Shown in pieces: positions 17,275 to 61,105 of a stretch of DNA of 64,000 nt. Every line of letters starts with the position of its first letter. The first letter of the stretch is position 1. The position numbers and the translations under genes were made by a program. Origin of the DNA: Deltaproteobacteria bacterium (lineage in GTDB: Bacteria > JAGRBM01 > JAHCIT01); the NCBI GenBank assembly GCA_026129095.1, contig JAHCIT010000004.1:1-64000 (forward strand), written 5' to 3'. The notes under the pieces were generated by a model. It was given only the letters and a program-made list of their open reading frames with translations. It made no database searches and was not told where the DNA came from.

Positions 17275-17278
17275 CGCC

Positions 17279-17656: not shown

Positions 17657-17661
17657 AGACC

Positions 17662-19689: not shown

Positions 19690-19728
19690 CGGCGGGCCGC
19701 CACACGGAAGAAGGACGGAGGGCCGGAG

Positions 19729-25202: not shown

Positions 25203-25237
25203 CGGACGGTTCCCGGCAGGGCCGGGAGGGGAACGGG

Positions 25238-27235
25238 ATGAGCGAAGCGGATTCCGCCATCGAGGCGAAGCTGGAGAACCTTGCCCGTTCGGGCGGCTCC
25301 CCGCGCTCGCTCGCCCTCATCATCGCGGGGCTGGCCGATCCCGAGTGGCGGGTCCGCAAGGCGGCCATCGAGGCCGGCTGCACCTACCCGGATGTCTCCG
25401 CGCTCATTCCCGAACTGATCTCCGCGCTCGCCGACCCGGAAAACGTGGGCCGCCGGAACGCCGCCGCCGAACTGCTGGCGGCCATGGGCGACCGGGCCGT
25501 GCCGGTGCTGATCCTCAAGCTGGAGGACATGGACCCCGACGTCCGCATCTTCGCCGCCAACGTGCTGGGGGATATCCGCGCCCCGGCCGCCATCCCGGCA
25601 CTCATCGCCCGCATCGGCGACCGGGACGAGAACGTCCGCATGGTCGCCGTCGAGCGGCTGGGGCTGTTCGACGACCCGGCCGTGGACCGGGTGCTGATCG
25701 GCCTGCTGGACAAGGACGACATCCCGCTGCGGTTCGCCGCGCTGGAAGCGCTTGCCGCCCATGACGCACGGATACCGGTGGAGGTGCTGGCACGGCTCGC
25801 GGGCCAGCTTGTGCTCCGCCCCGGCGTGTTCCGCGCCCTCCGCAGCGGACGCCAGCCGGAGGCCTGGGAGATCGTCGCCGGGGGCGTGCTGGACCAGGCC
25901 CGGTCGTCGAGGGAGATGGCGACGCTGGCCCTGAGCGAACTGGTGCAGAATTTTCCCGAACTGGTGCCGCGGGTGCTGGGGATGCTCCAGCCGAAGGCCA
26001 CGCCCGATTCGGTCACGCGGCTCGCACTGGCGGTATCGTCCGAGGACGTGACGCTCCGCCGCGCCACGGTGGACGTGCTCGGCCTGATGCCGAGCCCGGC
26101 GGCCGTGTCCCATCTCATCGCGCTGGCAGAGGACGACGACCTTTCGGACCTCGCCGCCATCGCCCTCGCCCGGCTGGCCCACCGGTTCGGACCGCTCATG
26201 CTGGAGACCTGGGACCAGGCCAACGACCGGGAACGCTCGCTCCTCGCCAAGGCGTTCGGCACGGCCCAGGTGGGGGCGGCCGCCGACCGGCTGATGGCGG
26301 CCCTCGATTCGGGATACGGACACCTCATCGCCAATGCGGCCCGCGCCCTGGGGGACCTGGGGGCCGTGGAGGCCGTCACCGACCTGGCGGTGCTGCTTGC
26401 CCACTCCTACCCGGACGTGCGGCTGGCGGCGGCGCTGGCCCTTCAGCGGATGGCGTCAGTGGACATGGACGCCGTCTCCCGCGCCGTGCTCCCCCACTCC
26501 GGGGCGGACGAGGCACGCACCCGCGCCGCGGCGGCGACCGCGCTCGCGGCCGCCGGAACGCCGGGGGCGAAGACGGCCCTCTACCGGCTGCTCAAGGACG
26601 CCGAGCCCTCCGTGCGGCAGGCGGCCGTCGAGGCCCTCAATCCCCACGCGCTCGACGGCGCGTTCGACTATATCGCCCCGCTGCTGGCCGACGAGTCGGC
26701 CGAGGTCCGGCGGACGGTGGTGGATGTGATCGGCAAGGTGCCGCACAGCCGGGTGGTGCAGGTGCTGGACGCCGCCCTGAATGACATCGACATCTGGGTC
26801 CAGGTGGGCGCGGTGCGTAGCCTGGGCATGCGGCCGGAAACCGGCGCCCTGGAACCGGTGATCCGGCTCCTCGGCCAGCCCGACCTCGCGCCGCCGCTCG
26901 TCGCCGAATCGCTAAGGGCGATCGAACGCCGCAACCCGGCCCTGCTGGCCGAGACGGCCCTGCCGCTGCTGACGAGCGCCGAGGTTGACGTGGTGCTGGC
27001 CGCACTGGAGGCGCTGGCCGCCGCCCCCCGCACCCCCGGCATCGGCGCCACACTCGAACGGCTGCTCCGTCACGACCACTGGGATGTCCGCAGCAAGGCG
27101 GCCCAGGTATACGCGCTGCACGCGGGCGAACAGGCGCGCCCGGCCCTGCTCGACCGGCTCCGCAGCGAAACCGACGCCCTCGTCCACCGGGCCATCCGGT
27201 TCGCGCTGGACCGCATCGCCCCCAAACGCCCATGA
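25238..27235 (+). CDS. HEAT-repeat protein
   Basis: Multiple D-x-x-x-x-VR-x-x-A-x-x-x-LG repeats. ATG at 25238. Confidence 0.9.
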   Translation: MSEADSAIEAKLENLARSGGSPRSLALIIAGLADPEWRVRKAAIEAGCTYPDVSALIPELISALADPENVGRRNAAAELLAAMGDRAVPVLILKLEDMDPDVRIFAANVLGDIRAPAAIPALIARIGDRDENVRMVAVERLGLFDDPAVDRVLIGLLDKDDIPLRFAALEALAAHDARIPVEVLARLAGQLVLRPGVFRALRSGRQPEAWEIVAGGVLDQARSSREMATLALSELVQNFPELVPRVLGMLQPKATPDSVTRLALAVSSEDVTLRRATVDVLGLMPSPAAVSHLIALAEDDDLSDLAAIALARLAHRFGPLMLETWDQANDRERSLLAKAFGTAQVGAAADRLMAALDSGYGHLIANAARALGDLGAVEAVTDLAVLLAHSYPDVRLAAALALQRMASVDMDAVSRAVLPHSGADEARTRAAAATALAAAGTPGAKTALYRLLKDAEPSVRQAAVEALNPHALDGAFDYIAPLLADESAEVRRTVVDVIGKVPHSRVVQVLDAALNDIDIWVQVGAVRSLGMRPETGALEPVIRLLGQPDLAPPLVAESLRAIERRNPALLAETALPLLTSAEVDVVLAALEALAAAPRTPGIGATLERLLRHDHWDVRSKAAQVYALHAGEQARPALLDRLRSETDALVHRAIRFALDRIAPKRP

Positions 27236-28101
27236 GCCCCCTCGACACCAGCCCGAAGATGTCGGACGAGGAGTTCCGCCTGATCAGGGACTTCCTCGTC
27301 GCCCGGGTGGGACTCTATTTCGACGAGCAGATGAAGTTCCTGCTGGAGCGGCGGCTCTACCGGCGGCTCGAACTCCGGCAGATGAAGGATTACCGGTCCT
27401 ATGCCCAGTTCCTGCGCTACGACCCCAAGGCAGCCGCCGAACTGGACGAGATGGTCGAGCTCCTGACGACCAACGAGACCTACTTCTTCCGCGAGGCCTA
27501 CCAGCTCGACGCCCTCACCGGGGAGGTGATCCCGGAGCTGGTGGAGCAGAAGAAACGGCGCGGCGAGCGGCGGCTCCGGCTCTGGAGCGCCGGGTGTTCC
27601 AGCGGGGAGGAGCCCTACACGCTGTCCATCCTGATGCTCGAACATCCCCTGCTAGCCGGATGGGAGACCGAGATCATCGGGACCGACATCAACCAGCGGG
27701 TGCTGGCGAAGGCGCGCACGGGCATTTACACGGAACATTCGCTCCGCGGCGTTCCGGAAGGACGCATGGACCGCTACATCGAGCGGTACCCGGACGGCCG
27801 GTTCCGCATCACCGACGAGGTTCGCCGCCCCGTCACCTTCGGCGCGGCAAACCTGCTCGACCGGTCGAAACTGGCGTTTCTGATGGATGTGGACGTGATC
27901 CTGTGCCGCAACGTGCTGATCTATTTCGATGCCGCCAGAAAGCGCGGCGTGATCGACCTGTTCCACGAGAAGCTCGTTCCCGGCGGCTTCCTCCTGCTCG
28001 GCCACTCCGAGTCGCTCCTGAACCTCTCCACCCGGTTCCAGCTCCGGCACCTGGCGACCGACATGGTGTACCAGCGGCCGCCGAAGGAGGCCGGAGCATG
28101 A
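27232..28101 (+). CDS. cheR: Chemoreceptor methyltransferase CheR
   Basis: TTNETYFFRE, WSAGCSSGEEPY, CRNVLIYF and LGHSES. Confidence 0.95.
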   Translation: MSPLDTSPKMSDEEFRLIRDFLVARVGLYFDEQMKFLLERRLYRRLELRQMKDYRSYAQFLRYDPKAAAELDEMVELLTTNETYFFREAYQLDALTGEVIPELVEQKKRRGERRLRLWSAGCSSGEEPYTLSILMLEHPLLAGWETEIIGTDINQRVLAKARTGIYTEHSLRGVPEGRMDRYIERYPDGRFRITDEVRRPVTFGAANLLDRSKLAFLMDVDVILCRNVLIYFDAARKRGVIDLFHEKLVPGGFLLLGHSESLLNLSTRFQLRHLATDMVYQRPPKEAGA

Positions 28102-39600: not shown

Positions 39601-40071
39601 ATGCGACCAAGAGGTTTGATTTCGTGGAACCTTAGCGAACTCGCCCTCGCCCTGAAAATCGATGAAAAAGATGTGCGAGAATATTTTACTGACGGAAGGC
39701 GTATCTCCTTCCTGCTTGAAAGACGGCTCGCGGCAGAGGTCGGTGGGCAGCTTGCACCGTCTGAAGGAGCTGGGTTCGACTTGATTGACGCCCAAGGTCA
39801 CAAGTGGGAAGTGAGGAGTATTTCCAAGGGGGGAATTTATTTTTGTCCCAGCTACATGGTCGGCTCAGGACGAGCCTTCGTAGAAACCGGTTTCATTGAA
39901 AAGCTTGACCATATTGCCGGATTTTTGGTGTCCGATATCGAAGCTTTTCCGGACGTCCCATATTGGGAAATACCGCATTCAGCCGTGCGGCAGTGGTGGA
40001 ATCAAAATCAACTGGGTACAACAACAAAAGTAACCCGGGGCAAGGCATTAACGCTGATATCCGATTTGTAA
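39601..40071 (+). CDS. Putative type II restriction endonuclease, PD-(D/E)xK-like
   Basis: EGAGFDLIDAQGHKWEVRSI motif; low GC; directly upstream of the MTase. Confidence 0.55.
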   Translation: MRPRGLISWNLSELALALKIDEKDVREYFTDGRRISFLLERRLAAEVGGQLAPSEGAGFDLIDAQGHKWEVRSISKGGIYFCPSYMVGSGRAFVETGFIEKLDHIAGFLVSDIEAFPDVPYWEIPHSAVRQWWNQNQLGTTTKVTRGKALTLISDL

Positions 40072-40080
40072 TTTATAACC

Positions 40081-41385
40081 ATGAAAGCACTTCAACACGA
40101 TTTTTTTGATACCCACAATTCCGGTCATGTGGACGCGCAGTTATCTCCAAACCTACTGAAAGACGAACTTTCACGTTTCAGCGAGTTTGGCAAACAGACA
40201 ATAGTCAATTCCAATAGCACCATTGTTAATGCTTCAAATAACGAAACATTTCATATCAGTTATTACATAAATGAATTCTGGACTGCAAAGCAACGTGCTG
40301 CTCATTCAATTCATGAGATCTCTTACCGCGCCTGTTTCAAACCGCAGTTACCGCGCTTTTTCATTGAGCGGCTGACCAGTCCAAAGGATATGGTTTATGA
40401 CCCGTTTATGGGGCGCGGGACCACCATAATCGAGGCCGCATTGCTGGGCAGAACCCCGGCAGGATGCGACGTAAACCCGCTAAGTCAGGTCATCGTGAGA
40501 CCAAGACTGGAACCGCCGGATATAAATGATATTGAGAAACGGTTACGCACCATAGATTTCGATTCGCCACAGGATATCCCTGACGATTTGCTTGTATTCT
40601 ATCATCCCCGAACATTGCAGCATATTTGTGCCCTTCGAAACTACTTGCTGCACAAGGCGGGGAATAAATCCCTGGATAAGGTGGACCGATGGATTCAGAT
40701 GGTTGCAATAAACAGATTAACCGGCCACTCCCGCGGTTTTTTTTCCGTATACACCATGCCGCCTAACCAGGCGGTTTCGGTTGAAACCCAGCGCAAGATC
40801 AATTCTCAACGAAACCAGTCCCCAGATGAGCGTAACATCAGTGCAATCATACTTAAAAAAACAAAGTCTCTGCAAAAGGATCTGACCAGAACTGATCTAG
40901 AGCGCCTCACCAGTGCATCATTACGATCGTTACTGTTAACCGGGCAATCCAGCAATACACCGGATATCCCATCGGAATCGGTTTCCCTAGTCGTGACATC
41001 CCCGCCTTTTCTGGATGTGGTTGATTATGCCGGAGATAACTGGTTGCGTTGCTGGTTTTTGGGAATTGATGCTCAATCGCTCGCAATCACCATGTCCAGG
41101 AAACTTGCTGACTGGATGAACAACATGACCGCCGTCCTGAAAGAAGTGTGTCGTGTCTTGAAGCCCGGCGGCTATGTCGCATTTGAAGTCGGCGAAGTAA
41201 GAGGCGGAAAAGTCCGCCTTGAAGAGGCAGTCGTGCCATGTGGCATATCTGCTGGACTGGGCCCGGTTCTGGTTCTCATTAATGACCAGAAATTTACCAA
41301 AACAGCGAATTGCTGGGGCGTGGACAACAATTCAAAGGGCACCAATACCAACCGGATCATAGTATTCCAGAAGCCCCCTACCTGA
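40081..41385 (+). CDS. Amino-DNA methyltransferase (probably N4-cytosine; motif I before motif IV)
   Basis: DPFMGRGTT SAM motif, VTSPPF catalytic motif and RVLKPGG; low GC. Confidence 0.85.
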   Translation: MKALQHDFFDTHNSGHVDAQLSPNLLKDELSRFSEFGKQTIVNSNSTIVNASNNETFHISYYINEFWTAKQRAAHSIHEISYRACFKPQLPRFFIERLTSPKDMVYDPFMGRGTTIIEAALLGRTPAGCDVNPLSQVIVRPRLEPPDINDIEKRLRTIDFDSPQDIPDDLLVFYHPRTLQHICALRNYLLHKAGNKSLDKVDRWIQMVAINRLTGHSRGFFSVYTMPPNQAVSVETQRKINSQRNQSPDERNISAIILKKTKSLQKDLTRTDLERLTSASLRSLLLTGQSSNTPDIPSESVSLVVTSPPFLDVVDYAGDNWLRCWFLGIDAQSLAITMSRKLADWMNNMTAVLKEVCRVLKPGGYVAFEVGEVRGGKVRLEEAVVPCGISAGLGPVLVLINDQKFTKTANCWGVDNNSKGTNTNRIIVFQKPPT

Positions 41386-43300
41386 TCCCGTAGCGGGCGA
41401 TCTTCTTCATGAAGCCCTGGCGGGAGAAGCCGAGGAGTTCGGCGGCGCGGGTGCGGTTGCCGCCGGTGGCGAGCAGGGTTTCCTGGAGGATCTCGCGCTC
41501 GCGCTGCTCAAGGAGCGCCTTCAGCGTGCCGTTGCCCCGGTCGGCGTCGCCCTCCCCGCCCGGTCCGCCGTCCGTCACGCGCTCCGAGAGGTGCTCCGGC
41601 CCCACCTCGGTCCCGCCGTCCAGGTTGATGACGGCCCGCTGCATCTCGTTCTCCAGCTCGCGCACGTTGCCGGGCCAGCCGTAGGCCAGTATCGCCTGCC
41701 GGGCGGCTTCCGAGAGCACGGGCGCCGGGCGGCCGCCCTCGCGGGCGAGCTTGCGGAGAAAATGCGCGGCGAGCAGCGCGGCGTCCTCGCCCCGCTCCCG
41801 GAGCGGCGGCACGCGCACGGGGAAAACGCTCAGGCGGTAAAAAAGATCCTCGCGGAACCGGCCCGCCTTCACCTCCGTTTCGAGGTTCTTGTTCGACGCG
41901 CTCACGATCCGCACGTCCGCCTTGCGGGTTTCGGTGGCGCCCACCGGGCTGAACTCGCCTTCCTGCAACACCCGGAGCAGTTTCACCTGCATCGCGGCCG
42001 GCATGTCGCCCACCTCGTCCAGGAACAGCGTGCCTCCGTCGCAGATCTCGAACAGCCCCTTCTTGTCGTTCATGGCCCCGGTGAAAGCGCCCTTGACGTG
42101 GCCAAAGAGCTCGCTCTCCAGCAGCGTCTCGGCCAGCGCGGCGCAGTTGACGGCGCGGAACTCCCCCTGCGCGGCCCTGGGGCCGCCGTAGTGGATGGCG
42201 CGGGCGACCAGTTCCTTGCCGGTGCCCGTCTCGCCCTCGATGAGCACGGTCGTGTCGGTGCCGATCACCTTGCGGAGCTTCTCGAACACCGCCTGCATGG
42301 GGACAGAGCCTCCCACGATGTCCCCCAGCGAGCGGCCGAACTGCGAGCGCCAGTAGGTGTTCTCCTCGGCGAGCCTGTCGGCCTTCTTCCTCAGTTCCTC
42401 CACCAGTTCGAGGTTTTCCACCACCCGCGAGGTGACGCCGGAGATCACCAGGAGAAGGTCCAGGTCGCGCTCGTCGAACGCCCTCGCCTCGGTCTTGTTG
42501 TCGATCTGGATGATCGCCCGGAACTCGCCCTGGCTCATCACCGGGGCGCACAGGCAGGACAGTATCTTCGACGCCGCCACCGACCCGGCCGTGGGGAACC
42601 GGGCCGGCACGTCCTCGACCAGAAGGCATTCGCGGCGGGCGGCCATCTGCTCCAGCAGCGAGCGCGAGAGGATGAAGGGCTCCTGCGGCGCCGCGCCCGA
42701 CTGGGTGCGCGAGACGGCCGCCTCGAACCGCTTGCGGCGGTTCTTCACCAGGATCGTCACCCGCGAGGCCTTCTCGAAGGCGGCCACGGCGGCGTCGGCC
42801 ACCGCCTCCCAGGCTTCCTCCGGGCGGCGGACCTGTTCCAGCTTCCGCCACAGCCGGTAGACCTGCGCGAGGGCGGCCGTGTCGCGCCCGATCCGGCCGT
42901 CCACGGTGGCGCGGTCCTCGGCCTTGCGGACCGACAGCACCGTCCGGGTGTCGTCGCCGGGGTCCGCGCCGCCGGTCTCCGGCAGGAGGACCGATGCCCG
43001 GAACGACATGTCCGACTGGACGCCCCCCAGGGTCAGGATGTCGCCGGGGAGGATTTCGAGCCGTTCGGACCTGAACAGCCGGTCCCTGCCGTCCCGGGTG
43101 AGGACGGTCCCGTTGGTCGAATCGAGGTCCGAAAAGTAGAGCTTTTCGCCCGACCGGTAGAGCTGGCCGTGCTCGCCCGACACGTAGGGGTTGTCAATGG
43201 CGATGTCGCAGGAGGCCCGCCGCCCGAAGGTGACGGCCTCGCGGTCCATCTCGACCTGTTCGCCCTTGCGGGGGCCGGCGATGAATTCGATCCGGATCAT
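41378..43300 (-). CDS. Sigma54-dependent activator, FHA-GAF-AAA-HTH
   Basis: FHA (FGR, VSGEH, STNGT), GAF, GETGTGKE, GAFTGA, WPGNVREL and Fis HTH. Confidence 0.93.
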   Translation of the reverse strand: MIRIEFIAGPRKGEQVEMDREAVTFGRRASCDIAIDNPYVSGEHGQLYRSGEKLYFSDLDSTNGTVLTRDGRDRLFRSERLEILPGDILTLGGVQSDMSFRASVLLPETGGADPGDDTRTVLSVRKAEDRATVDGRIGRDTAALAQVYRLWRKLEQVRRPEEAWEAVADAAVAAFEKASRVTILVKNRRKRFEAAVSRTQSGAAPQEPFILSRSLLEQMAARRECLLVEDVPARFPTAGSVAASKILSCLCAPVMSQGEFRAIIQIDNKTEARAFDERDLDLLLVISGVTSRVVENLELVEELRKKADRLAEENTYWRSQFGRSLGDIVGGSVPMQAVFEKLRKVIGTDTTVLIEGETGTGKELVARAIHYGGPRAAQGEFRAVNCAALAETLLESELFGHVKGAFTGAMNDKKGLFEICDGGTLFLDEVGDMPAAMQVKLLRVLQEGEFSPVGATETRKADVRIVSASNKNLETEVKAGRFREDLFYRLSVFPVRVPPLRERGEDAALLAAHFLRKLAREGGRPAPVLSEAARQAILAYGWPGNVRELENEMQRAVINLDGGTEVGPEHLSERVTDGGPGGEGDADRGNGTLKALLEQREREILQETLLATGGNRTRAAELLGFSRQGFMKKIARYGIR

Positions 43301-43512: not shown

Positions 43513-44376
43513 TTGAAACTCAAGAACCTCACCTACCCGCTTCTAAAGAAGGCCATAGACCTCTATGTGGCCCGGGCCTATCCGGCCAAGATCATCCCCG
43601 AACGGCTGCTGGGCATCCTCGAACTGAGGGGCCTCGAAAAAAAGAGCGGCTGGAAGGACGTGGTCCAGTGGCCCGAATGGGAACGGACCCCGCCCAAGGC
43701 CGGCCCGGCCGAGGTGACGCGGCTCCAGCTCCGGCTGGGGAATGCCTCCTATCCGCACATGAAGCTGTCGCTCGACCGGATTTCGGACACCGACGAGTTC
43801 ATCTGGAGCGTTGATACCCACGACCAGAAGGTGATCGAGCTGGGCGGCGGGACGGAGAAGTACAAGAAGCTCCAGGAGGAGAACCAGCGGTTCCGGCACG
43901 AAATCGAGGCCGACTGGACGGCCGCCGGGATCAGCACCCAGAAGAGTTACTGCGAGGAGATCACCGAGCAGACGCCGCCCCCGGCCCGGATCAGCGAGAA
44001 CGCCGCCCGCGCCCTCCTCATTGACGACGATGACGAGATCCTCTGCCTGGAGCGGGTGCTGCTGGAGCACGAGGGGTTCCGGGTCTTTACCGCGAAAAGC
44101 TCCGCGGAGGCGGTGCAGGTGTTCGAGCAGTCCAAACCGTTCGACATCTGCCTCGTGGACGTGATGATGCAGGACCGCACGGGCGTGGACCTGCTGAAGG
44201 AGCTCCGCACGCGCCACGGCCTCAACTGCCCGGTCGCCTTCATCACCGCCATGATCGACCCGCCCGTCAAGCCCGAACCGAACCTCGCCGTCATCAAGAA
44301 GCCCTTCGACTCCCGCGAACTCCTCAAGACCGTGCACGACCTCATGGAAGGCAGCAGGGACCAGCGCGCCGGATGA
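43513..44376 (+). CDS. Response regulator with uncharacterised N-terminal domain
   Basis: C-terminal REC (IDDD, DVMM, TA, KPF). TTG start. Confidence 0.8.
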   Translation: MKLKNLTYPLLKKAIDLYVARAYPAKIIPERLLGILELRGLEKKSGWKDVVQWPEWERTPPKAGPAEVTRLQLRLGNASYPHMKLSLDRISDTDEFIWSVDTHDQKVIELGGGTEKYKKLQEENQRFRHEIEADWTAAGISTQKSYCEEITEQTPPPARISENAARALLIDDDDEILCLERVLLEHEGFRVFTAKSSAEAVQVFEQSKPFDICLVDVMMQDRTGVDLLKELRTRHGLNCPVAFITAMIDPPVKPEPNLAVIKKPFDSRELLKTVHDLMEGSRDQRAG

Positions 44377-45542
44377 GCGGCCCCCTCCTGGCAAGCGGCC
44401 AGGCCCGGTTCAGGACCTGGCTGCCGACGCGGATCTTCGGCGGCGCGGGCTCGGCCGGAAAGGCCGCCAGAATCGCCGCCGACACCGGCATCCGCAAGGC
44501 CATTCTCGTCTCCGACCGGGGCCTTGAGGCCGCCGCCCGGACACTCGCCGAAGCGCTCGGCCCCCTGCACGCCTGCACCTTCCTCGACGTGGAGCCCGAT
44601 ACCGGCGTCGAAATCATCGACCGGGCGACCGAGCTGGCGCGCCGCCACTCGGCCGATGGTGTCGTGAGCCTGGGCGGCGGGTCGGTCATGGACACGGCGA
44701 AAGGTGTCGCCGCGGCCCTGAAAACCGAAGGCTCCGTGCGGCCGCTCATCGGCACCGGGACGATGAAGGGAAAGACGGCCGCGCCGCACCTCGGCATTCC
44801 CACCACGGCCGGCGCCGGCAGCGAAGTGACCTGCGCGGCGGTGATCCGCGACGGCGCGGCCAAGCTCGTCTTCTGGGACGACGCCCTCTACCCCGCCGCC
44901 GCGATCCTGGACCCGCTGCTCACGCTGAAGCTCCCGGCCCGGCTCACCGCCGCCACCGGCATGGACGCCCTCACCCACGCGGTCGAGGCGGTCCATTCGC
45001 TCTCGTCGGGGCCGCTCACCGACGCGCTGGCGCTCCATGCGGTCTCGCTCATTTCGGGCAGCCTGCGCGAGGCGGTCCACCTGCCTGGGAACCCCGACGC
45101 CCGGATGTCGATGCTTGTCGCCTCGAATCTCGCCGGTCAGGCGATCTCGAACGCGTTTCTGGGGTCGGTCCATGCGCTCGCCCACAGCGTGGGCGCGCAC
45201 TGCCGCGTCCACCACGGCACGGCGAATGCTATCCTGCTTCCCCATGTGATGCGGATGAACCTGGAACTGAACCCGGAGTTCTGCGCCCCGCGCTATGCCG
45301 CCGTGGGCCGGGCGCTCGGCGTGCCGCACGGAAGCCCGGAGGAGCTTTCGCTCCGGGCGGTCCAGCGGATCGGGGCGCTGATCCGCGAGGTGGACCTGCC
45401 CTCACGCCTGCGCGACGTGAATGTGCCGCCGGGAAGCGGCGCCCTCCTGGCCGAGGGGGCGATGGCCGACATCTCCCACCGCACCAACCCCGTCCCCATG
45501 ACCCGCGAGCTGTTCGAGCAGCTTGCAGAACGGGCGTGGTGA
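44373..45542 (+). CDS. Iron-containing alcohol dehydrogenase
   Basis: LGGGSVMDTAK, IPTTAGAGSEVT, GMDALTHAVE, HALAH and HHG. Confidence 0.92.
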   Translation: MSGPLLASGQARFRTWLPTRIFGGAGSAGKAARIAADTGIRKAILVSDRGLEAAARTLAEALGPLHACTFLDVEPDTGVEIIDRATELARRHSADGVVSLGGGSVMDTAKGVAAALKTEGSVRPLIGTGTMKGKTAAPHLGIPTTAGAGSEVTCAAVIRDGAAKLVFWDDALYPAAAILDPLLTLKLPARLTAATGMDALTHAVEAVHSLSSGPLTDALALHAVSLISGSLREAVHLPGNPDARMSMLVASNLAGQAISNAFLGSVHALAHSVGAHCRVHHGTANAILLPHVMRMNLELNPEFCAPRYAAVGRALGVPHGSPEELSLRAVQRIGALIREVDLPSRLRDVNVPPGSGALLAEGAMADISHRTNPVPMTRELFEQLAERAW

Positions 45543-45562
45543 GCGGGGGGGGCTGATGACCC

Positions 45563-46636
45563 CTACCCCACCGGCAGGACGATCCTGAACACGGTGCCGC
45601 CTCCGGGCGGGCAGTCGGCGCTGATGGTTCCGCCGTGGAGCAGAACCGCCCGGCGGGTGATTGGCAGGCCGAGGCCGGTCCCGCGGCTCTTGGTCGTGAA
45701 GAACGGGTCGAAGATCCGCTCCCTCGCCTCCGGCGGAATGCCCGGCCCCGTGTCCCTGATGGTGATCTCCGCCGCCGCCCCGCTCCGGGCCACGCCGATG
45801 GCGATGGAACCCTGGCCCTTCATCGCCTGCGCCGCGTTGAGAAGGAGGTTCATGACCGCTTCCCTGAGGAGGTCGGGATCGGCGTTCAGCCGCACGTCGT
45901 CGCCGGAGACGCGGACACTCACCCCGCCGCAGGCGGGATCCCGGTCCAGCAGGGCGCCCGAATCATTGAGAAGGGGCAGCAGCCCGATGCGCCGGAAGCT
46001 GGGCGGCCGGGGACGGCCGTAGACCAGCAGGTGATTGACCGTATCGTTCAGGCTGGCGAGCCGGTCCATGATCTCGCCGATCACGGCCCGGTCCCGGCTG
46101 TCTTCCGGGAGGCGGCCGCCGATGATCTGTATCGCGCCGCCGATTCCGGCGAGCGGGTTCCGCACCTCGTGAGCGACGACCGTGACCATCTCGCCGAGGT
46201 GGGCGAGAGCCTTCTGCTCCACCAGCGACGCCTGGGCGTCCTCCAGCCGCTTCTGGAGCCGCCGGAAAAACCACAGCCCCGCCGCCGTTGCCCAGACCGC
46301 CGTCAGCGACATCATCCGGTTGAAAATGGCGAACTGGTCGAACTCGTGGCCGAGCGTGGGCTTGAGGAAATAGCCCAGGACCGCCAGCAGCGTGACCGCC
46401 ACTGTCACCGCGAACATGGCGGCCGTGCCCCCGGCCTGGAAGGCCAGCAATAGCGGGATGATATACAGCACCGGCACGGCCAGCCCCCGCGGCGTCAGGC
46501 AGTCGGTGGCGAAAATGGCCGCGGCGATGGCGATGGTGGCCGCCACCAGCACCCACCGGCGCGCACCGGGGCTGTTCAGGGATTCAGGCATTTCAGGTCC
46601 GGTCCTGCGGAACCCTCCCGGCCCTTCGGCCATCAT
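45563..46636 (-). CDS. Membrane sensor histidine kinase
   Basis: About 4 TMs; AHEVRNPL, NLLLNA, DTGPG and FFTTKSRGTGLGL. Start may be 46591. Confidence 0.9.
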   Translation of the reverse strand: MMAEGPGGFRRTGPEMPESLNSPGARRWVLVAATIAIAAAIFATDCLTPRGLAVPVLYIIPLLLAFQAGGTAAMFAVTVAVTLLAVLGYFLKPTLGHEFDQFAIFNRMMSLTAVWATAAGLWFFRRLQKRLEDAQASLVEQKALAHLGEMVTVVAHEVRNPLAGIGGAIQIIGGRLPEDSRDRAVIGEIMDRLASLNDTVNHLLVYGRPRPPSFRRIGLLPLLNDSGALLDRDPACGGVSVRVSGDDVRLNADPDLLREAVMNLLLNAAQAMKGQGSIAIGVARSGAAAEITIRDTGPGIPPEARERIFDPFFTTKSRGTGLGLPITRRAVLLHGGTISADCPPGGGTVFRIVLPVG

Positions 46637-46703
46637 CCGGGAGATTTCAACGCAAAACCGTCTTGCTGGATATGACGAATGACAGGTACCCGGCGGGAAA
46701 GGG

Positions 46704-49094
46704 CTATTTCTCGATGGCCCGGAGGATCTCGTCCTCGTGGGCGGCCCACTCCTTGTCGTAGACCGCGCGCTCGTCCGCCCCCACATCCACCTCGCGGACC
46801 AGCCGCCCGGCCCTCGACAGGACGAACCAGACCATCGGAATGACACCCCCGAACAGGAACAGCGTTCCGCCGATCTTTCGCAAGTGAGCCAGGGTCTGCC
46901 ATACCATCCCGGTCACGAAGTCGTTGGTCCGGGCGTACCACAGGCCGTGCTCCACCACGGCCGCGAGCTGGTAGAGCCCAATGGGGAACAGGTTCAGCGT
47001 CATCATCAGCACGATTCCCAGCTGGAGCGACCAGAAGGACCGGTTGATGAGCTTCTCGTTCCACGAGGCCCTGGGAAACAGGTGCTGGCAGCAGAACAGC
47101 ATGCCCGCCAGCGCCACGTTCCCCTTCACGCCGAACATGGCGGCATGGGCGTGGTTTCCGGTGAGGTAGGTCGAGTGCTCGTAGTAGTTGATGATGGGCA
47201 GGTTGATGAGCGATCCGAACACGCCGGCCCCGATGATGTTCCAGAAGTTGACGGCGAGGATGAATCTCCACACGCCTTCCATCACGAACTTCTGCCTGCC
47301 GCCGGCATGGTTCGCTCCGGCGCGCACGATCTCGTTCCGCATCCGCCAGGCGTCCAGGGTGATGAGGAGCAGCGGCAGCACCTGCAGCGTCGAGAAGACA
47401 CTGCCCAGGGCGATGATTCCCGTCGGCTTGCCGATCCAGTAGAAATTGTGGGAGATGCCGACCGTCGCCGTGACGAGGAACATCATGACCGCCAGGAAGA
47501 TGACCCGTTCGGCCATGGCGCGGTTGATGAGCCCCATCTGGACGAGCATGTATCCGACGATGCAGGTGGTGAACACCTCGAAGGTGACCTCGACCCACAT
47601 GTGGACGGTCATCCAGCGCCAGTAGTCGGAGATGGCGAAGTTGGTCCTCGCCGTCGCCCCCAGCCCGAAAAATAGGAACAGGACCATGATCGCGCTGCCG
47701 TAAAAGAGCCAGGCGGGAACGGACCAGAGGTTCTGCTTCGAGATCCAGGGCCGGACGCCCCGGAAGATGATCACGATCCACAGGACAAAGGACACCAGCA
47801 TCAGGATGTGCCAGAACCGCCCCAGCTCCATGAACTCCCATCCCTGGCTCCCGAACCAGTAGGCCAGGGTGTCGTTCATCAGGCCCATCTGGCCCGCATA
47901 GATCCCGAAAAACGCGCCCGCGCCGACGGTCACGCAAAGGGCGAACAGGAGTTCGATCAGGAAACGCTGGCCTTTGGGCACTGGTGCGAGCTTGGGCAGG
48001 AAGAAGATCGTGTACCCGACCCAGCACATGAAGAACCAGTAGATCTGAAGGAGCGTGTGCCAGGACCGGACGACGTTGAAGGGGATGGAAAGCCCGAACA
48101 GGCTGACGACCGTCATGCCCGGACCGCCTTCGAGGAAATCCTCGGCGCTCAGGATGCCCGCCAGCACCTGGACCAGGAACAGGAGCATGGCGAAGGCGAA
48201 GAACTTGTACGTGGATCTCTGGGTGGGACGGACGAAGTCGTGGCCCTTCTCCAGCTCAACCGTGGTGAGCGTGCCGCCATTGGCCCCGTTGAACGGGTCG
48301 CCGGGGAGTTCCTTCATCTGGCCATAGATGTAGAGAACCAGCATGATCCCCAGGAACAGCGCGAGGATCGAGACGAAACTCCACAGGACCGTGGGCATGG
48401 TCGGGTGGTTGCCGGCATCCGGGTCGTAGGGCCAGTTGTGCGTGTAGCTGAAGTTCTCCCCCGGCCGGTCGGCCCCGGAGACCCACCCTCCCCAGAAGAA
48501 AAAGGCCGTCAGCGCCTGCAGGTCGTCCGGGCTGGAGATGTAGTTGGGAAAGGTGAACGCCTCGGAGTAGGAGGAGTCGGTGAACATCCGCGTGTAGTGC
48601 TTTTCCAGCTCCCGCAGCGCGAACACCTGGGCGTCGTTGATGCGGATCAGGTCTTCCTCCGGGGAATATCCGTTCTCGTGGATCTCCTGCTGCACCCTCA
48701 TCCTGATCGCGTTCCGGTCCGCACCGGTCAGCTCGCGCTCCCGGCTGATCTCGTCCTCGTAGTAGGTCCGCATCGCCAGCACCGTCCGGTGCAGCGCGTC
48801 GGCGGTGAAGTCGGGGCCCCGCTCCGCGCCGTCGCCCCAGAACGATCCCCACGACATCAGTCCGCGGAGATGGAATATCTCCTTCCCGCGATCGACCCTT
48901 TCGGCGGGAATCACCGTTTCCCCGGCGGGCGAGACGAAGTTGGCGATCGGCGGCGCCCCCTCGTAGGTCCACGATCCCAGGGCGACGAGCCCCACGATGC
49001 TGATTCCGGCCACGACCGCGAAATGGAGCCACCAGGTCTTCTTGTCCAGAAGCCACTTGGCGAACGTCCGGTTCCTGTTTCCAGCTCCACTCAT
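46704..49094 (-). CDS. nod: Putative nitric oxide dismutase (Nod; atypical qNor, heme-copper oxidase superfamily)
   Basis: qNor architecture (YTHNWPYD, HMWVE, NHAH) with SHN for HH, TLQV for ALEV, and loss of the quinol-site His and Asp. Confidence 0.88.
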   Translation of the reverse strand: MSGAGNRNRTFAKWLLDKKTWWLHFAVVAGISIVGLVALGSWTYEGAPPIANFVSPAGETVIPAERVDRGKEIFHLRGLMSWGSFWGDGAERGPDFTADALHRTVLAMRTYYEDEISRERELTGADRNAIRMRVQQEIHENGYSPEEDLIRINDAQVFALRELEKHYTRMFTDSSYSEAFTFPNYISSPDDLQALTAFFFWGGWVSGADRPGENFSYTHNWPYDPDAGNHPTMPTVLWSFVSILALFLGIMLVLYIYGQMKELPGDPFNGANGGTLTTVELEKGHDFVRPTQRSTYKFFAFAMLLFLVQVLAGILSAEDFLEGGPGMTVVSLFGLSIPFNVVRSWHTLLQIYWFFMCWVGYTIFFLPKLAPVPKGQRFLIELLFALCVTVGAGAFFGIYAGQMGLMNDTLAYWFGSQGWEFMELGRFWHILMLVSFVLWIVIIFRGVRPWISKQNLWSVPAWLFYGSAIMVLFLFFGLGATARTNFAISDYWRWMTVHMWVEVTFEVFTTCIVGYMLVQMGLINRAMAERVIFLAVMMFLVTATVGISHNFYWIGKPTGIIALGSVFSTLQVLPLLLITLDAWRMRNEIVRAGANHAGGRQKFVMEGVWRFILAVNFWNIIGAGVFGSLINLPIINYYEHSTYLTGNHAHAAMFGVKGNVALAGMLFCCQHLFPRASWNEKLINRSFWSLQLGIVLMMTLNLFPIGLYQLAAVVEHGLWYARTNDFVTGMVWQTLAHLRKIGGTLFLFGGVIPMVWFVLSRAGRLVREVDVGADERAVYDKEWAAHEDEILRAIEK

Positions 49095-49207
49095 GGCTGC
49101 AACCTCTAATCAAGACCCAAACGGGTGACTTTCAGAAACTACGCCCAGTGGAATGTACGGTAACAAGCAGCGGCAATGTCCATCAATCCGCCAAATGGCT
49201 CATTTGC

Positions 49208-49225
49208 CTGATGCAAATGCATCAG
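49208..49225. promoter_or_regulatory. Perfect inverted repeat CTGATGCA-aa-TGCATCAG upstream of nod
   Basis: 8-2-8 palindrome in the divergent intergenic region. Confidence 0.5.
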
Positions 49226-49276
49226 TACCCCCCATTTCCCTCCCCGCCCCCGGCGGGTGTACGCTTGAGGGCAGTC

Positions 49277-50089
49277 ATGGCCGGACCCGACACATCGCGC
49301 CCGCAGGGGGAGCCGAAACCCGAAACGGCCGGCACGCAGCCCCTGTTCTTCTCGACCGCGCTCGGCGAGAACTACCGCGAGTTCTGGTCGAACATGGCCA
49401 GCACGCCTGAGGGGGCGCGGCTCGCCGTGTCGGGCCACCCGTTCGGCCAGTATCCGGACGAGCGGCTGGTGGACTTGCAGGGGCTCCCGGTGGCGCGGCT
49501 CGTGAAGGAGTCGCTCGACCTGGACGGCACCCAGCGGCTCCTCGAAGTCGGCTGCGGCATCGGGCGGCTCGCCCGGCACCTCGCCCCGTGGGTGGAGGAG
49601 TACCACGGGGCGGACATCTCGCCGGCCATGTGCCTGAGGGCGTCACACCGGCTCTGGGGGGTGCGGAACGCCTTTTTTCACGAACTGCCGGAGCCGGACC
49701 TTGGCGTCTTCCCCGGCCAGTCGTTCGACGCCGTGATGTTCCAGCACGTGCTCATTCACCTGGACCCGCCCGACGCCGAGCACTACCTCGCCGAGGCGTA
49801 CCGGGTGCTCCGGCCCGGCGGAAAGCTCTACGCCCAGTTCTACAACCGGCGGCACCCGCAGGGGTTCGACGAGACGGTCCACGCCGTGGACCAGCGGCTC
49901 CGCGACGGCCGCGCCCAGCGGGGCCGCGTCTTCTGCCACACGAGCCACGAGGTGCGCGCCATCGTCGCGCAGGCGGGGTTCGAGATCGACCGGGAGAAAA
50001 GCCACCTGGAACCCTGGCGCCAGAACCGGCGGTGGTGGCCCGACAACGACTTCTTCTTCTGGTTGATTGCCGTGGGGACGAGGCGCTAA
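49277..50089 (+). CDS. Class I SAM-dependent methyltransferase
   Basis: LLEVGCGIGR, GADIS, FDAV and RVLRPGG. Confidence 0.88.
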   Translation: MAGPDTSRPQGEPKPETAGTQPLFFSTALGENYREFWSNMASTPEGARLAVSGHPFGQYPDERLVDLQGLPVARLVKESLDLDGTQRLLEVGCGIGRLARHLAPWVEEYHGADISPAMCLRASHRLWGVRNAFFHELPEPDLGVFPGQSFDAVMFQHVLIHLDPPDAEHYLAEAYRVLRPGGKLYAQFYNRRHPQGFDETVHAVDQRLRDGRAQRGRVFCHTSHEVRAIVAQAGFEIDREKSHLEPWRQNRRWWPDNDFFFWLIAVGTRR

Positions 50090-54028: not shown

Positions 54029-54239
54029 TGGTGGCGGGGCAGTAAACAGCAGGCAGGCCGCAGGGAATACCGGCGGGTGCCTCAGCCGGCCGGCGAGCCG
54101 GTCGCCACCTGGTAGGGGAGCTGCCCGCCGGTGATCCGGTCGTGCTCGCGGCCCTGGGGCCGGTAGTAGGTGTTCCGGTGGTGGGCGAGATTCAGCGCGA
54201 GATACAGCAGCGGGTGGCGGCGGTTGTTCCAGAACCGGC
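54029..54239 (-). repeat. 211-bp direct repeat, copy 1 (duplicated 3' end of the B12-rSAM gene)
   Basis: Matches 55620-55830 with 4 mismatches. Confidence 0.92.
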
Positions 54240-54854
54240 CGCTGGCTCGCCAGGGACCCGATCCTGTTTGGCGGCGGCACGGCCAACCTGTACGAATACT
54301 GCGGAAACGATCCGGTAAATTGTACGGACCCGAGCGGGACTGTTCCCATTCTGGCCGTCGCGGTGGTGTGGGCGGGGGCGGAGCTGGCCCTGTCGGCATG
54401 GGATGCATACGAGACATATGCCACGCTGACCGACCCGGAGGCATCGGTATCGGAAAAGTCGCTCACGCTGGGGCTGTTCGCGGTTGGGGCCCTTCTTCCC
54501 GGTGGCGGCTGGACGGCGAGCGGGAAGAAGATCGTAAAGTCTTCTTCTAGAGTACTGGGCCGTGCCTTAGAAGCTGCTGGGCATTCTAGGCCTGCAAACT
54601 CTGCAGCACACCATATTGTTGCCGGTTCTGCCGCTGCTGCCGAACCAGCAAGACGAGTATTAAATAAACTGGGGATCGGAATAGATGACGCTACCAATGG
54701 TATATTCTTACCAATGCAACAACATGATATGCTGCACACAACTGAATACTACTCAGCCATAAACAAAGCTTTGCAGGGAGTATCGACACGCCAGCAAGCA
54801 ATGGACGTTCTTGAAGCTATTGCGCAGAAATTAAGGAATCAGAAATTTCCGTGA
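54237..54854 (+). pseudogene. Orphan Rhs C-terminal fragment with AHH-family (HNH/EndoVII) nuclease toxin domain
   Basis: In-frame GRWLARDPILFGGGTANLYEYCGNDPVNCTDPSG, then AAHHIV..NGIFLP..H...H. The Rhs body is missing. First in-frame start is GTG at 54363. Confidence 0.82.
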
Positions 54855-54870
54855 TGGATAAGGATGCAAT

Positions 54871-55347
54871 ATGGAAGATCCGAAAGTATTAGCAGATTTG
54901 TTTTCGAGGCTGGGTGCTAGGCATCCAGAAAGATGGGCCAAATCGCAGATTGAAGAGGGTATCCCTCAGCTTGCTAGGTATTTGTTCCTACGGCAGGCGT
55001 GGAAGCACGTGGTGGATCCCAATGGCGACTGGATTGCAGATTCAATTACAACGGAAAACCGTGACCTTCCTGGCGGTAATATAGGCCCTGCGCTTAATAG
55101 AATCGTGGCGCAGGGAGCGACACACGCTGATATCAACACCATAGTTCGTATCAAACAATGGGAATTGCTCTCCAGACTTTGTCACCTGATTGACGATCCA
55201 GACTTGGAAGAGGATGAAGTGAAAAGTATCGGATGGCGACTATTTTTGGTAAATGAAAATGATGAGCCGATCGAGATCATTCCAGGGCTTCATGAGTCTG
55301 TTCTAGAAGTTGAACCTACTGGTTATGAGATGCGGCCTGCTAAGTGA
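54871..55347 (+). CDS. Putative immunity protein
   Basis: Low-GC acidic ORF 16 bp downstream of the toxin CT; AAGGA RBS. Confidence 0.7.
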   Translation: MEDPKVLADLFSRLGARHPERWAKSQIEEGIPQLARYLFLRQAWKHVVDPNGDWIADSITTENRDLPGGNIGPALNRIVAQGATHADINTIVRIKQWELLSRLCHLIDDPDLEEDEVKSIGWRLFLVNENDEPIEIIPGLHESVLEVEPTGYEMRPAK

Positions 55348-55434
55348 CTTCCCGCGACACTGTGCGCCAGGACACCGGGCAGTCGCTGGCGGGACGCGGG
55401 GGCATGATCGGTGGCGCGCCACCGGTGTCGGCGC

Positions 55435-60751: not shown

Positions 60752-61105
60752 TTATGGAAGACGAAGATCGAGAACGATGCGGAGGCCGTCGTCAACACGC
60801 CGGAGCGTGAACAGGTCCAGCATGCCCACGTATTCGAGCAAACCCGACTTATCCACGGTCATGATCTGCGAAACATTCACCACCGAATCCCGTGCAAGGC
60901 CGCTCGATTCCTTCGGGACGAGGACGTTCCCGGGTGCCTTGGCGAGTTCCAGATTGCCGGTCAGCGCCGCCACGATGACCGTTGAAATCCGGCTGTCGTT
61001 GAACCGGTTGGCCTGAATCGCCATGACCGGCCGCCGGTAGCCGGGTGCCGATCCCGCCGGGGCCGGCAGGTCGGCCCACCAGATACTCCCGCGCCGGATT
61101 ACCAC
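60752..61105 (-). CDS. mazF: PemK/MazF-family toxin
   Basis: RGSIWWADL..P.GS.PGYRRP..Q...FN.S.I.TVIV and SGL..DSVVNVSQI.TVDK. Confidence 0.9.
   Translation of the reverse strand: MVIRRGSIWWADLPAPAGSAPGYRRPVMAIQANRFNDSRISTVIVAALTGNLELAKAPGNVLVPKESSGLARDSVVNVSQIMTVDKSGLLEYVGMLDLFTLRRVDDGLRIVLDLRLP

What the first reader, a model, noticed from the sequence alone, without database searches (positions are those of the whole stretch)
46704..49094. Putative nitric oxide dismutase (Nod) in a deltaproteobacterial/Myxococcota-like genome
Seen in sequence: the 796-aa qNor-type protein keeps the heme/Fe ligands His346, His498, Glu502, His549, His648 and His650. It has Asn550 where qNor has the third FeB His (GISHNFYW), Gln571 at a catalytic Glu (STLQVLPL), Glu318 at the quinol-binding His (SAEDF), and Gly743 at the quinol-binding Asp (RKIGG). 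Established, from memory: these positions match G. stearothermophilus qNor H560, E581, H328 and D746 with consistent offsets. The same substitutions define the Nod proposed for Methylomirabilis (NC10) and strain HdN1 to convert 2NO to N2 + O2. Nod activity itself has not been shown with purified enzyme. Inference: this organism may generate O2 internally from NO, in a lineage and gene context unlike NC10. An automatic annotation would call it plain norB/norZ.
Basis: partly seen in the sequence, partly recalled or inferred. Interest (0 to 1): 0.9.

Follow-up and report, generated by a model that had tools for sequence, protein, structure and literature searches.

The report
Putative nitric oxide dismutase gene
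This gene encodes a Nod-type relative of nitric oxide reductase, the enzyme type proposed (never proven) to split NO into N2 and O2; it sits in a little-sampled denitrifying lineage, but such genes are already known from many phyla.

Summary
An intact 796-aa ORF lies on the minus strand at 46704-49094.

The protein belongs to the NOD clade, not to canonical qNOR:
- It is 69% identical to M. oxyfera DAMO_2434 and about 31% to solved qNORs.
- It has the Nod-type residue at 9 of 9 discriminating columns.
- It sits in a 100%-supported clade apart from 17 qNOR rows.

The region is not a chimera. Its flanks are collinear with two family relatives, and an independent soil metagenome assembles the same junctions.

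The lineage claim is only partly right. The genome belongs to a GTDB phylum with six held genomes. The nearest named relative is labelled Bdellovibrionota, not Myxococcota.

All six genomes carry nirS and cNorB, but only two carry nod. In this genome nod and a histidine kinase form a ~3.7-kb indel.

Nod-type genes occur in at least 545 species genomes and are published for 16 phyla. Catalysis remains unproven for any member. This is a new member of a known kind, of moderate interest.

The parts
46704..49094 (-). nod: 796-aa NOD-clade heme-copper oxidase. It has an N-terminal heme-less cytochrome c-like domain (residues 52-223) and a COX1 domain (295-744).
   Evidence: ORF and translation. Pfam. 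Alignment to 3AYF. 69% identity to DAMO_2434. Tree. Model TM 0.85/0.89 to 3AYF. dN/dS 0.17 and 0.135.
45563..46636 (-). Membrane histidine kinase (HisKA + HATPase_c), co-directional with nod and 67 nt downstream of its stop. It is probably co-transcribed. The listed ORF runs up to 46846, but the likely start is the ATG at 46636.
   Evidence: Pfam. Sequence. In the five other genomes of the order the matches cover only the catalytic half (residues ~128-356, at most 54% identity); no full-length ortholog was found.
45543..49250 (.). Indel of about 3.7 kb (kinase + nod) relative to family relative G007. There the alcohol dehydrogenase gene directly abuts the methyltransferase gene. The right boundary is approximate.
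   Evidence: tblastn synteny. Junction alignment.
49095..49230 (.). Short divergent intergenic region upstream of nod, the presumed promoter. No recognisable sigma-70 or FNR/Dnr site was found. The right edge is uncertain because the true methyltransferase start is unclear.
   Evidence: Relatives align to the methyltransferase only from residue 29-72.
44373..45542 (+). Left flank: iron-containing alcohol dehydrogenase, part of the block shared with relatives.
   Evidence: Pfam. 68% identity to G006 and G007 orthologs.
49148..50089 (+). Right flank: SAM-dependent methyltransferase, part of the block shared with relatives.
   Evidence: Pfam. 63-67% identity to relatives.

Best explanation
The gene encodes a member of the NOD ('nitric oxide dismutase') clade, which descends from quinol-dependent NO reductase. 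I put clade membership at about 0.95.

The protein keeps the qNOR scaffold, the two heme sites, and two His plus one Glu of the non-heme metal site. It lacks the third metal His (Asn550), the proton-relay Glu (Gln571) and the quinol-binding His and Asp (Glu318, Gly743). It therefore most likely cannot draw electrons from quinol (inferred).

In this organism NO would come from a cytochrome cd1 nitrite reductase (NirS) encoded on another contig (shown as gene content only). The most likely chemistry is electron-neutral conversion of 2 NO to N2 + O2. The O2 would then be consumed by the aa3- and cbb3-type oxidases or by other O2-dependent enzymes. I put that chemistry at about 0.5; it is unproven for every member of the clade.

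The gene sits with a membrane histidine kinase in a ~3.7-kb segment that close relatives lack. It is thus an accessory trait added to a nirS + cNor denitrifier. Whether it was gained here or lost in the relatives is not resolved.
For: Residues and mapping to 3AYF.

Identity: 69% to M. oxyfera DAMO_2434 (P0058 = CBE69496), against 28-31% to solved qNORs in the structural alignment.

Discriminating columns: Nod-type residue at 9 of 9 columns that separate 118 Nod-type from 17 qNOR-type proteins.

Tree of 56 rows: the NOD clade has 100% SH-aLRT support. The query sits in a 23-row clade (99%) that holds the three Methylomirabilis rows. All 17 qNOR rows, including Cupriavidus necator NorB, fall outside.

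Species genomes: 80 of 80 kept loci carry H498/E502/H549/N550/Q571.

Selection and model: dN/dS is 0.17 and 0.135. The model has pLDDT 81.3 and TM 0.85/0.89 to 3AYF.

Genome content:
- nirS, nirF/N-like and nirJ-like genes, plus norC-norB-norQ, on contig C4. The norB product matches 4XYD at E 6e-117.
- CtaD-type and ccoN-type oxidases.

The locus is native. The flanks are collinear with G007 and G006 at 63-83% amino-acid identity. Contigs of DNA run X2, from a different study than the possible source, bridge all three junctions.

The mechanistic logic (no quinol site, altered metal site, impaired proton supply) is that of Ettwig et al. 2012 (PMC3413370, passages read).
Against: No NOD has been purified or assayed (PMC11549561 and PMC13386854, passages read).

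Elbon et al. (bioRxiv 2023.11.21.568154, passages read) note that foraminifera expressing Nod produce N2O. PMC13386854 mentions 'opposing results'.

This genome and all five other genomes of its phylum carry a canonical cNorB. NO removal therefore needs no Nod, and multiple NORs per genome are common (PMC11214002, passage read).

No methane or ammonia monooxygenase was found, though the control for that search was silent. No obvious O2-requiring catabolic partner lies next to nod, and no gene neighbour is conserved across 80 loci.

nirS and nod lie on different contigs of a metagenome-assembled genome whose contigs range from 59 to 66.5% GC. nirS is nevertheless present in 6 of 6 genomes of the phylum.
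Confidence: 0.55

Rival explanations
1. It is an NO reductase that still makes N2O. Electrons would come from a donor other than quinol, for example a periplasmic carrier docking on the cytochrome c-like domain. It would serve as a second, perhaps high-affinity or detoxifying, NOR beside cNor.
For: The heme and metal ligands other than one His are intact. Other heme-copper NOR families work with altered metal sites, for example gNOR with His-His-Asp (PMC11214002, passage read). Foraminifera expressing Nod emit N2O (cited in bioRxiv 2023.11.21.568154, passage read). Many genomes hold several NOR types (PMC11214002).
Against: The Glu linked to catalysis and proton delivery is Gln in 118 of 118 Nod-type proteins, and the quinol site is gone. 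No electron-donor gene is conserved next to nod. The cytochrome c-like domain was not checked here for a heme-binding motif.
Confidence: 0.25
2. It carries out a different NO chemistry or role. Examples are dismutation to N2O + O2, as proposed for ammonia-oxidising archaea, or NO binding and sensing coupled to the adjacent histidine kinase.
For: An N2O + O2 route exists in organisms without nod (PMC11549561, passage read). nod is followed 67 nt downstream by a co-directional membrane kinase with no recognised sensor domain.
Against: Kinase adjacency is not conserved: only 3 of 80 nod loci have even a weak kinase match, at 29-33% identity. High conservation of the whole 800-aa catalytic scaffold across phyla (63-83% identity) fits an enzyme better than a sensor.
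Confidence: 0.1
3. It is an ordinary qNor (norZ), and the substitutions are neutral variation.
For: Automatic names of relatives say NorB or cbb3 subunit I. The fold is qNOR.
Against: Three defining qNOR features were tested and not met: the third metal His, Glu581, and the His328/Asp746 quinol site. The substitutions are fixed clade-wide under purifying selection. The clade is separated from qNOR rows with 100% support.
Confidence: 0.03
4. It is an assembly or binning artefact: the nod segment belongs to another organism such as NC10.
For: The genome is metagenome-assembled with uneven contig GC of 0.592-0.665. nod is absent from 4 of the 5 other genomes of the phylum.
Against: nod lies inside a 334,849-base contig. 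The genes on both sides are collinear with family relatives. An independent DNA run assembles contigs across all three junctions at even depth of 11-14. GC3 of nod (0.91) matches its neighbours at 0.85-0.94. The nearest Nod, at 83%, comes from the same order, while NC10 is at 69%.
Confidence: 0.02

Closest known systems
Putative NO dismutase DAMO_2434 (CBE69496) of 'Candidatus Methylomirabilis oxyfera' (Ettwig et al. 2012, PMC3413370)
   Same: 69% identity over 99% of the length. Same Asn, Gln and Gly substitutions, and even the same Glu at the quinol-site His position. Same 99%-supported subclade.
   Different: The host is a nirS + cNor denitrifier from a six-genome phylum with no methane monooxygenase found. 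Only a single copy was found. A histidine kinase lies immediately downstream.
Nod of the order-level relative G010 (a MAG that NCBI labels 'Bdellovibrionota bacterium', MEW6775643.1 cluster)
   Same: This is the nearest homolog found, at 83% identity. It forms a 98%-supported trio with the query. That genome also has nirS and cNorB.
   Different: There is no shared gene neighbourhood. Only a weak 29-31% kinase match lies 3 kb upstream.
Quinol-dependent NO reductase (qNOR) of Geobacillus stearothermophilus, PDB 3AYF/3AYG
   Same: Same single-chain architecture and fold (E 1.6e-131; TM 0.85/0.89). The conserved heme and metal ligands are the same except for one.
   Different: H560 becomes N, E581 becomes Q, H328 becomes E and D746 becomes G. 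Identity is about 31%, and the two fall in separate clades.
Nod of marine Alphaproteobacteria UBA11136 and other MAGs from oxygen-deficient zones (Elbon et al., bioRxiv 2023.11.21.568154)
   Same: Both are NOD-clade genes outside NC10 in genomes with aerobic oxidases. That paper reports one Myxococcota MAG with nod + nirS. A locus from a MAG titled Myxococcota ETNP8_MAG_7 is among my hits at 63% identity (L084).
   Different: Those proteins belong to the subgroup with Thr-Arg at the quinol-site positions, whereas the query has Glu-Glu. Most of those MAGs lack nir, while this genome has nirS.
cNOR (NorCB) encoded in the same genome, contig C4
   Same: Both are heme-copper NO-handling enzymes. 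The genome's cNorB is 27% identical to Nod residues 280-729.
   Different: cNorB keeps the His-His motif and the Glu. It has separate NorC and NorQ genes. It is present in 6 of 6 genomes of the phylum, against 2 of 6 for Nod.

Membership tests
NOD clade (putative nitric oxide dismutase; Ettwig 2012, Murali 2024) | qNOR-type single polypeptide: N-terminal helix, heme-less cytochrome c-like domain, and a 12-helix heme-copper oxidase core | tested here: met
   Pfam NorB_cytochrome_c-like (52-223) and COX1 (295-744). Alignment to 3AYF over residues 32-761. Model TM 0.85/0.89 to 3AYF. The absence of a heme c motif was not checked.
NOD clade (putative nitric oxide dismutase; Ettwig 2012, Murali 2024) | Retained ligands of the low-spin heme, the high-spin heme, and two His (plus Glu) of the non-heme metal | tested here: met
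   H346, H498, E502, H549, H648 and H650 are present and invariant in 29 of 29 sequences. Which residue binds which cofactor is taken from the qNOR literature, not tested here.
NOD clade (putative nitric oxide dismutase; Ettwig 2012, Murali 2024) | Third non-heme-metal His replaced by Asn | tested here: met
   N550 pairs with H560 of 3AYF. Asn occurs in 118 of 120 aligned proteins outside the 17 of qNOR type and the query, and in 80 of 80 loci.
NOD clade (putative nitric oxide dismutase; Ettwig 2012, Murali 2024) | Catalytic or proton-relay Glu replaced by Gln | tested here: met
   Q571 pairs with E581. Gln in 118 of 118 Nod-type proteins and Glu in 17 of 17 qNOR-type proteins.
NOD clade (putative nitric oxide dismutase; Ettwig 2012, Murali 2024) | Loss of the quinol-binding His328 and Asp746 | tested here: met
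   E318 and G743. None of the 80 loci has His at 318; 78 have Gly and 2 have Ala at 743.
NOD clade (putative nitric oxide dismutase; Ettwig 2012, Murali 2024) | Branches with M. oxyfera DAMO_2434 and apart from canonical qNOR | tested here: met
   56 rows, IQ-TREE quick search. NOD clade 100% SH-aLRT; query in a 99% clade with three Methylomirabilis rows. Caveats: this was a quick search; the qNOR branches are long; HdN1 and Bacteroidota NOD references were not available by name.
NOD clade (putative nitric oxide dismutase; Ettwig 2012, Murali 2024) | Scores above threshold with the published NOD-specific HMM (Murali et al.) | not testable with these tools
   That HMM is not in any library offered here. 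As a substitute, the query has the Nod-type residue at 9 of 9 discriminating columns.
NOD clade (putative nitric oxide dismutase; Ettwig 2012, Murali 2024) | Catalyses 2 NO -> N2 + O2 | not testable with these tools
   This has not been shown for any member (PMC11549561, PMC13386854, passages read).
Canonical quinol-dependent NO reductase (qNOR/NorZ) | Three-His + Glu non-heme iron site, Glu581, and the His328/Asp746 quinol site | tested here: not met
   N550, Q571, E318 and G743. The 17 qNOR-type representatives keep H/E/H..D at these columns.
Oxygenic denitrifier (organism level) | A nitrite reductase that supplies NO | tested here: met
   nirS on G000 contig C4 (401.5 bits to Cytochrom_D1, with an N-terminal cytochrome c domain). 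nirK was not found. nirS is in 6 of 6 genomes of the phylum.
Oxygenic denitrifier (organism level) | O2-consuming enzymes that could use internally made O2 | tested here: inconclusive
   CtaD-type and ccoN-type oxidases are present. There are five FA_desaturase-family hits of unresolved type. pmoA/amoA was not found, but the control was silent. P450 was not searched. The presence of such genes does not show that they use Nod-derived O2.

The most novel reading that the evidence does not exclude
nod and its own membrane sensor kinase were recently inserted as a two-gene cassette into a conserved chromosomal block of a nirS + cNor denitrifier. The host belongs to a phylum with only six held genomes. 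Close relatives keep the empty site (G007) or carry different cargo there (G006).

The lineage would then offer natural with/without pairs. These could show what Nod adds to a complete NO-reducing cell: a regulated switch from N2O-forming to O2-forming NO removal.
Probability: 0.2. Interest if true: 0.55.

Novelty: new member of a known kind. Interest (0 to 1): 0.35.

Why it matters
If NOD enzymes really make O2 and N2 from NO, organisms carrying them bypass N2O, a greenhouse gas, and create oxygen in anoxic habitats.

This instance adds a well-assembled example: a 335-kb contig in a genome estimated 96.65% complete. The lineage is barely sampled, and in it nirS and cNor are universal while nod is accessory. 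Relatives show an empty insertion site.

That contrast is useful for comparative or enrichment studies. Sequences nearly identical to this locus turn up in activated-sludge, soil and biofilm metagenomes.

It does not by itself make the open biochemical question easier to test than the many other known nod genes do.

Tried and rejected
- **NCBIfam.** It gave no family for the protein.
- **Conserved neighbours of nod.** ORFs of 80 loci were compared with window genes. Nothing recurs beyond 3-5 loci of weak radical-SAM or sigma-54 activator matches. That script wrongly excluded the kinase ORF, so I redid it: only 3 of 80 loci have a 29-33% kinase match.
- **FNR/Dnr box (consensus recalled).** There are 18 matches with up to 2 mismatches in the window, against 7.4 expected. 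None lies in 49095-49300 upstream of nod; the two nearest lie inside the nod coding region.
- **Promoter and terminator scan of 45300-49500.** It found 0 sigma-70-like sites. It found 5 terminator-like sites against 2.8 expected, all inside coding sequence. By eye I saw no sigma-54 -24/-12 element with correct spacing upstream of nod; this was not a tool result.
- **Dating the acquisition by synonymous divergence (G000 vs G010).** dS is 0.66 for nod, 1.60 for nirS, 0.94 for rpoB and 0.86 for ilvB. With GC3 of 0.8-0.94 and values near saturation I draw no conclusion.
- **Expression.**
  - RNA-library run X6 has contigs over 29 of 30 bins, flanks included. 30 of 40 pieces are only 95-99% alike. 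This is a related strain, and DNA carry-over is not excluded.
  - Runs X17 and X19, from two other studies, each have two short contigs (151-222 nt, 0-1 differences) inside nod and none of real length on the flanks.
  - The runs were found with this gene, and contigs cannot show transcription. I treat this as a weak hint only.
- **nosZ and pmoA.** Neither nosZ (nos_propeller) nor pmoA/amoA (AMO) was found in the genome. The control genomes were silent too, so absence is not shown.
- **C19 molybdoenzyme.** A 1161-aa type II DMSO-reductase-family subunit on C19 scores far below the narG cut-off (142 vs 1084 bits). The nitrate-reductase status of the genome is unresolved.
- **Literature searches.** One search was swamped by two generic terms and gave nothing. 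'Nitric oxide dismutase' together with 'Bdellovibrionota' returned 0 papers.
- **Supplements.** I cannot say whether this phylum is already on that list.
- **Not done.** I did not run a repeat search at the indel boundaries, a check for a heme c motif, a P450 search, or a 'careful' bootstrap tree.
Full report
**Observation.**
The window holds an intact 796-aa ORF at 46704-49094 on the minus strand, starting with ATG. A GAGG lies about 10 nt upstream of the start.

Pfam finds the qNOR-specific 'NorB cytochrome c-like' domain (residues 52-223, E 1e-46) and the heme-copper oxidase core (295-744, E 9e-51). NCBIfam finds nothing.

Against solved structures the best match is G. stearothermophilus qNOR 3AYF_A (E 1.6e-131, residues 32-761 against 33-763). 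The printed alignment pairs E318 with H328, N550 with H560, Q571 with E581 and G743 with D746.

**Is it Nod or qNor?**
A word-indexed search found 841 relatives among 8000 scored candidates. The best 120 listed are 63-83% identical. One of them, P0058 at 69%, is CBE69496 from the 2.75-Mb 'Ca. Methylomirabilis oxyfera' genome. Ettwig et al. 2012 list that accession as DAMO_2434, one of the two original putative NO dismutases (PMC3413370, passages read).

An exhaustive search of 50%-identity representatives gave full-length qNOR-type proteins at only 27-38% identity.

I aligned all 138 stored proteins of 700-900 aa, out of 270 stored. The result:
- 118 besides the query have Asn550 + Gln571, and 115 of these also have Gly743.
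- 17 have the qNOR pattern His/Glu/Asp.
- 2 are odd (P0010 and P0090).

Nine columns separate the two groups (at least 90% one residue in Nod-type, at least 80% another in qNOR-type). The query has the Nod-type residue at 9 of 9.

I then built a tree of 56 rows. These were the query, 39 Nod-type proteins, 14 unnamed qNOR-type representatives plus Frankiales, Neobacillus and Cupriavidus necator NorB (the Frankiales and Neobacillus rows are among the 17), and the genome's own cNorB as outgroup. The remaining 84 of the 138 full-length proteins were left out. The NOD clade gets 100% SH-aLRT support. The query falls in a 3-row clade (98%) with P0002 and P0003, inside a 23-row clade (99%) that also holds three Methylomirabilis rows. 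The caveats are the quick search and the long qNOR branches.

An AlphaFold model (pLDDT 81.3, pTM 0.84) matches 3AYF with TM 0.85/0.89. The ten best PDB matches are all qNORs at 28-31% identity. dN/dS against two homologs is 0.17 and 0.135, so the gene is under purifying selection.

**Is the locus real and native?**
nod lies inside a 334,849-base contig (C18) of a 3.67-Mb, 23-contig genome estimated 96.65% complete and 0.41% contaminated. GC3 of nod (0.91) equals that of its neighbours (0.85-0.94). The lower total GC over nod (61-63%) reflects first and second codon positions of a membrane protein.

Family relatives G007 and G006 carry the same gene block: sigma-54 activator, response regulator, Fe-alcohol dehydrogenase, methyltransferase, RluD-like synthase, S24 peptidase, AAA protein and radical-SAM/SPASM protein. 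Identities are 63-83%, and the order matches the window. Neither relative has a match to nod or to the kinase in those loci.
- In G007 the dehydrogenase match ends at 7504 and the methyltransferase match begins at 7565.
- In G006 about 5.5 kb of other DNA, including an FGE-sulfatase-domain protein, sits at that junction.
- DNA similarity to the G007 junction stops right after the dehydrogenase stop codon and resumes about 150 nt upstream of nod.

Kinase + nod (about 45543-49250) is therefore a ~3.7-kb indel at a variable site.

Contigs of DNA run X2, from a different study than the possible source sample, cover the whole 7.6 kb at even depth of 11-14. They bridge the dehydrogenase/kinase, kinase/nod and nod/methyltransferase junctions.

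**Which organism?**
IlvB from the window is 68% identical to that of a MAG that NCBI labels 'Bdellovibrionota bacterium'. It is 44-45% identical to MAGs labelled Thermodesulfobacteriota, 'Deltaproteobacteria' and Polyangiaceae, and 33% to an Archangiaceae MAG. Named database hits tell the same story, and two unnamed hits reach 85-87%.

A 942-aa part of RpoB from contig C1 is 73% identical to the same 'Bdellovibrionota' MAG and 68% to the Thermodesulfobacteriota MAG. Two markers on two contigs thus agree.

In the held GTDB collection the genome's phylum comprises only six genomes, in one order, two families and four genera. A request for up to 200 returned 6. The 'Bdellovibrionota' MAG is one of them: G010 and G001 share the 17,002-base contig. 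'Deltaproteobacteria-like' is fair in the old broad sense, but 'Myxococcota-like' is not supported.

**Genome context for the proposed pathway.**
Contig C4 carries these genes:
- a Crp/Fnr-type regulator;
- radical-SAM (NirJ-like) genes;
- a dihaem cytochrome c;
- cNorB (E 6e-117 to 4XYD, His-His motif and Glu retained);
- NorQ;
- a cytochrome d1-domain protein;
- NirS, with cytochrome c + d1 domains.

nirK was not found. A CtaD-type and a ccoN-type oxidase are present.

NirS is in 6 of 6 genomes of the phylum (75-84% identity). cNorB is in 6 of 6 (61-91%). Nod is in 2 of 6: this genome and G010, which belong to different families. The two nod genes share no neighbourhood.

The kinase downstream of nod starts 67 nt after the nod stop. 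It has no full-length ortholog in the order; matches cover only the catalytic half, at up to 54% identity.

**Mechanism.**
- Shown: the sequence features, clade membership, and the co-occurrence of nirS, cNor and oxidases.
- Inferred, following Ettwig 2012: without the quinol site and the proton-relay Glu the enzyme cannot perform 2NO + 2e- + 2H+ -> N2O + H2O in the qNOR manner. An electron-neutral reaction such as 2NO -> N2 + O2 fits.
- Not shown anywhere: the reaction itself. Reviews of 2024 and a paper of June 2026 state that NOD has not been isolated or characterised and that opposing results exist (PMC11549561, PMC13386854; passages read). Elbon et al. note N2O production by Nod-expressing foraminifera (bioRxiv 2023.11.21.568154, passages read).

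**Novelty.**
Nod-type genes outside NC10 are well documented:
- Murali et al. 2024 count 108 GTDB genomes (PMC11214002, Table 1 passage).
- Elbon et al. mention a Myxococcota MAG with nod + nirS.

All 80 loci kept carry H498/E502/H549/N550/Q571. Their record titles span Acidobacteria, Binatia, Planctomycetota, Alpha- and Gammaproteobacteria, Chloroflexi and others, and 8 of the 80 are labelled Myxococcota taxa.

I found no paper that combines 'nitric oxide dismutase' with 'Bdellovibrionota'.

**Verdict.**
This is a correct and careful observation of a genuine NOD-clade gene. It is a new member of a known kind. Its value lies in the under-sampled host lineage and the clean indel contrast with relatives, not in a new type of system.

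Noticed in passing
window 15376-28101: A chemosensory gene cluster: a DUF4388 response regulator, CheY-like, CheA, an AAA protein, two CheW, an MCP, a zinc-ribbon response regulator and CheR. From memory it resembles the Frz/Dif-type systems of gliding 'deltaproteobacteria'.
   Followed up: no
window 39800-41400: A low-GC island (43-49% against about 68% around it) holding a DNA methylase (N6_N4_Mtase, ORF 40081-41385). It is probably a recently acquired restriction-modification remnant.
   Followed up: no
window 54200-55400: A second low-GC island (49-57%) with an AHH-family HNH/EndoVII nuclease-domain ORF (54363-54854) followed by a 158-aa ORF with no family. It looks like a polymorphic toxin/immunity pair.
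   Followed up: no
window 60752-61105: A PemK/MazF-type toxin ORF of a type II toxin-antitoxin system. The partner antitoxin was not looked for.
   Followed up: no
L102 (G006 contig C4) 6500-12250: At the junction where the window carries kinase + nod, relative G006 carries about 5.5 kb of different genes, including a 718-aa FGE-sulfatase-domain protein. Relative G007 has nothing there. The site looks like a hotspot for gene gain or loss.
   Followed up: partly
G000 contig C19 about 61160-66210 (L100): A 1161-aa type II DMSO-reductase-family alpha subunit with its iron-sulfur beta subunit. Both score far below the NarG/NarH cut-offs, so the substrate (nitrate, nitrite oxidation, chlorate, selenate...) is unresolved.
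   Followed up: partly
G000, all contigs: Contig GC ranges from 0.592 (C1, 619 kb) to 0.665 (C11). The nod contig C18 is at 0.647. Markers on C1 and C18 point to the same nearest relative. Even so, the spread is large for one genome and deserves a binning check.
   Followed up: partly
whole phylum (G000, G006-G010): The GTDB phylum of this genome has only six held genomes, and all six carry both nirS and cNorB. This points to a small lineage of apparently obligate or habitual denitrifiers.
   Followed up: partly
P0122 (Planctomycetota MAG protein, 781 aa): This protein has the Nod-type Asn, Gln and Gly but keeps His at the quinol-site position 318. It branches as sister to the whole NOD clade with 100% support. 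It may be an intermediate form between qNOR and NOD.
   Followed up: no
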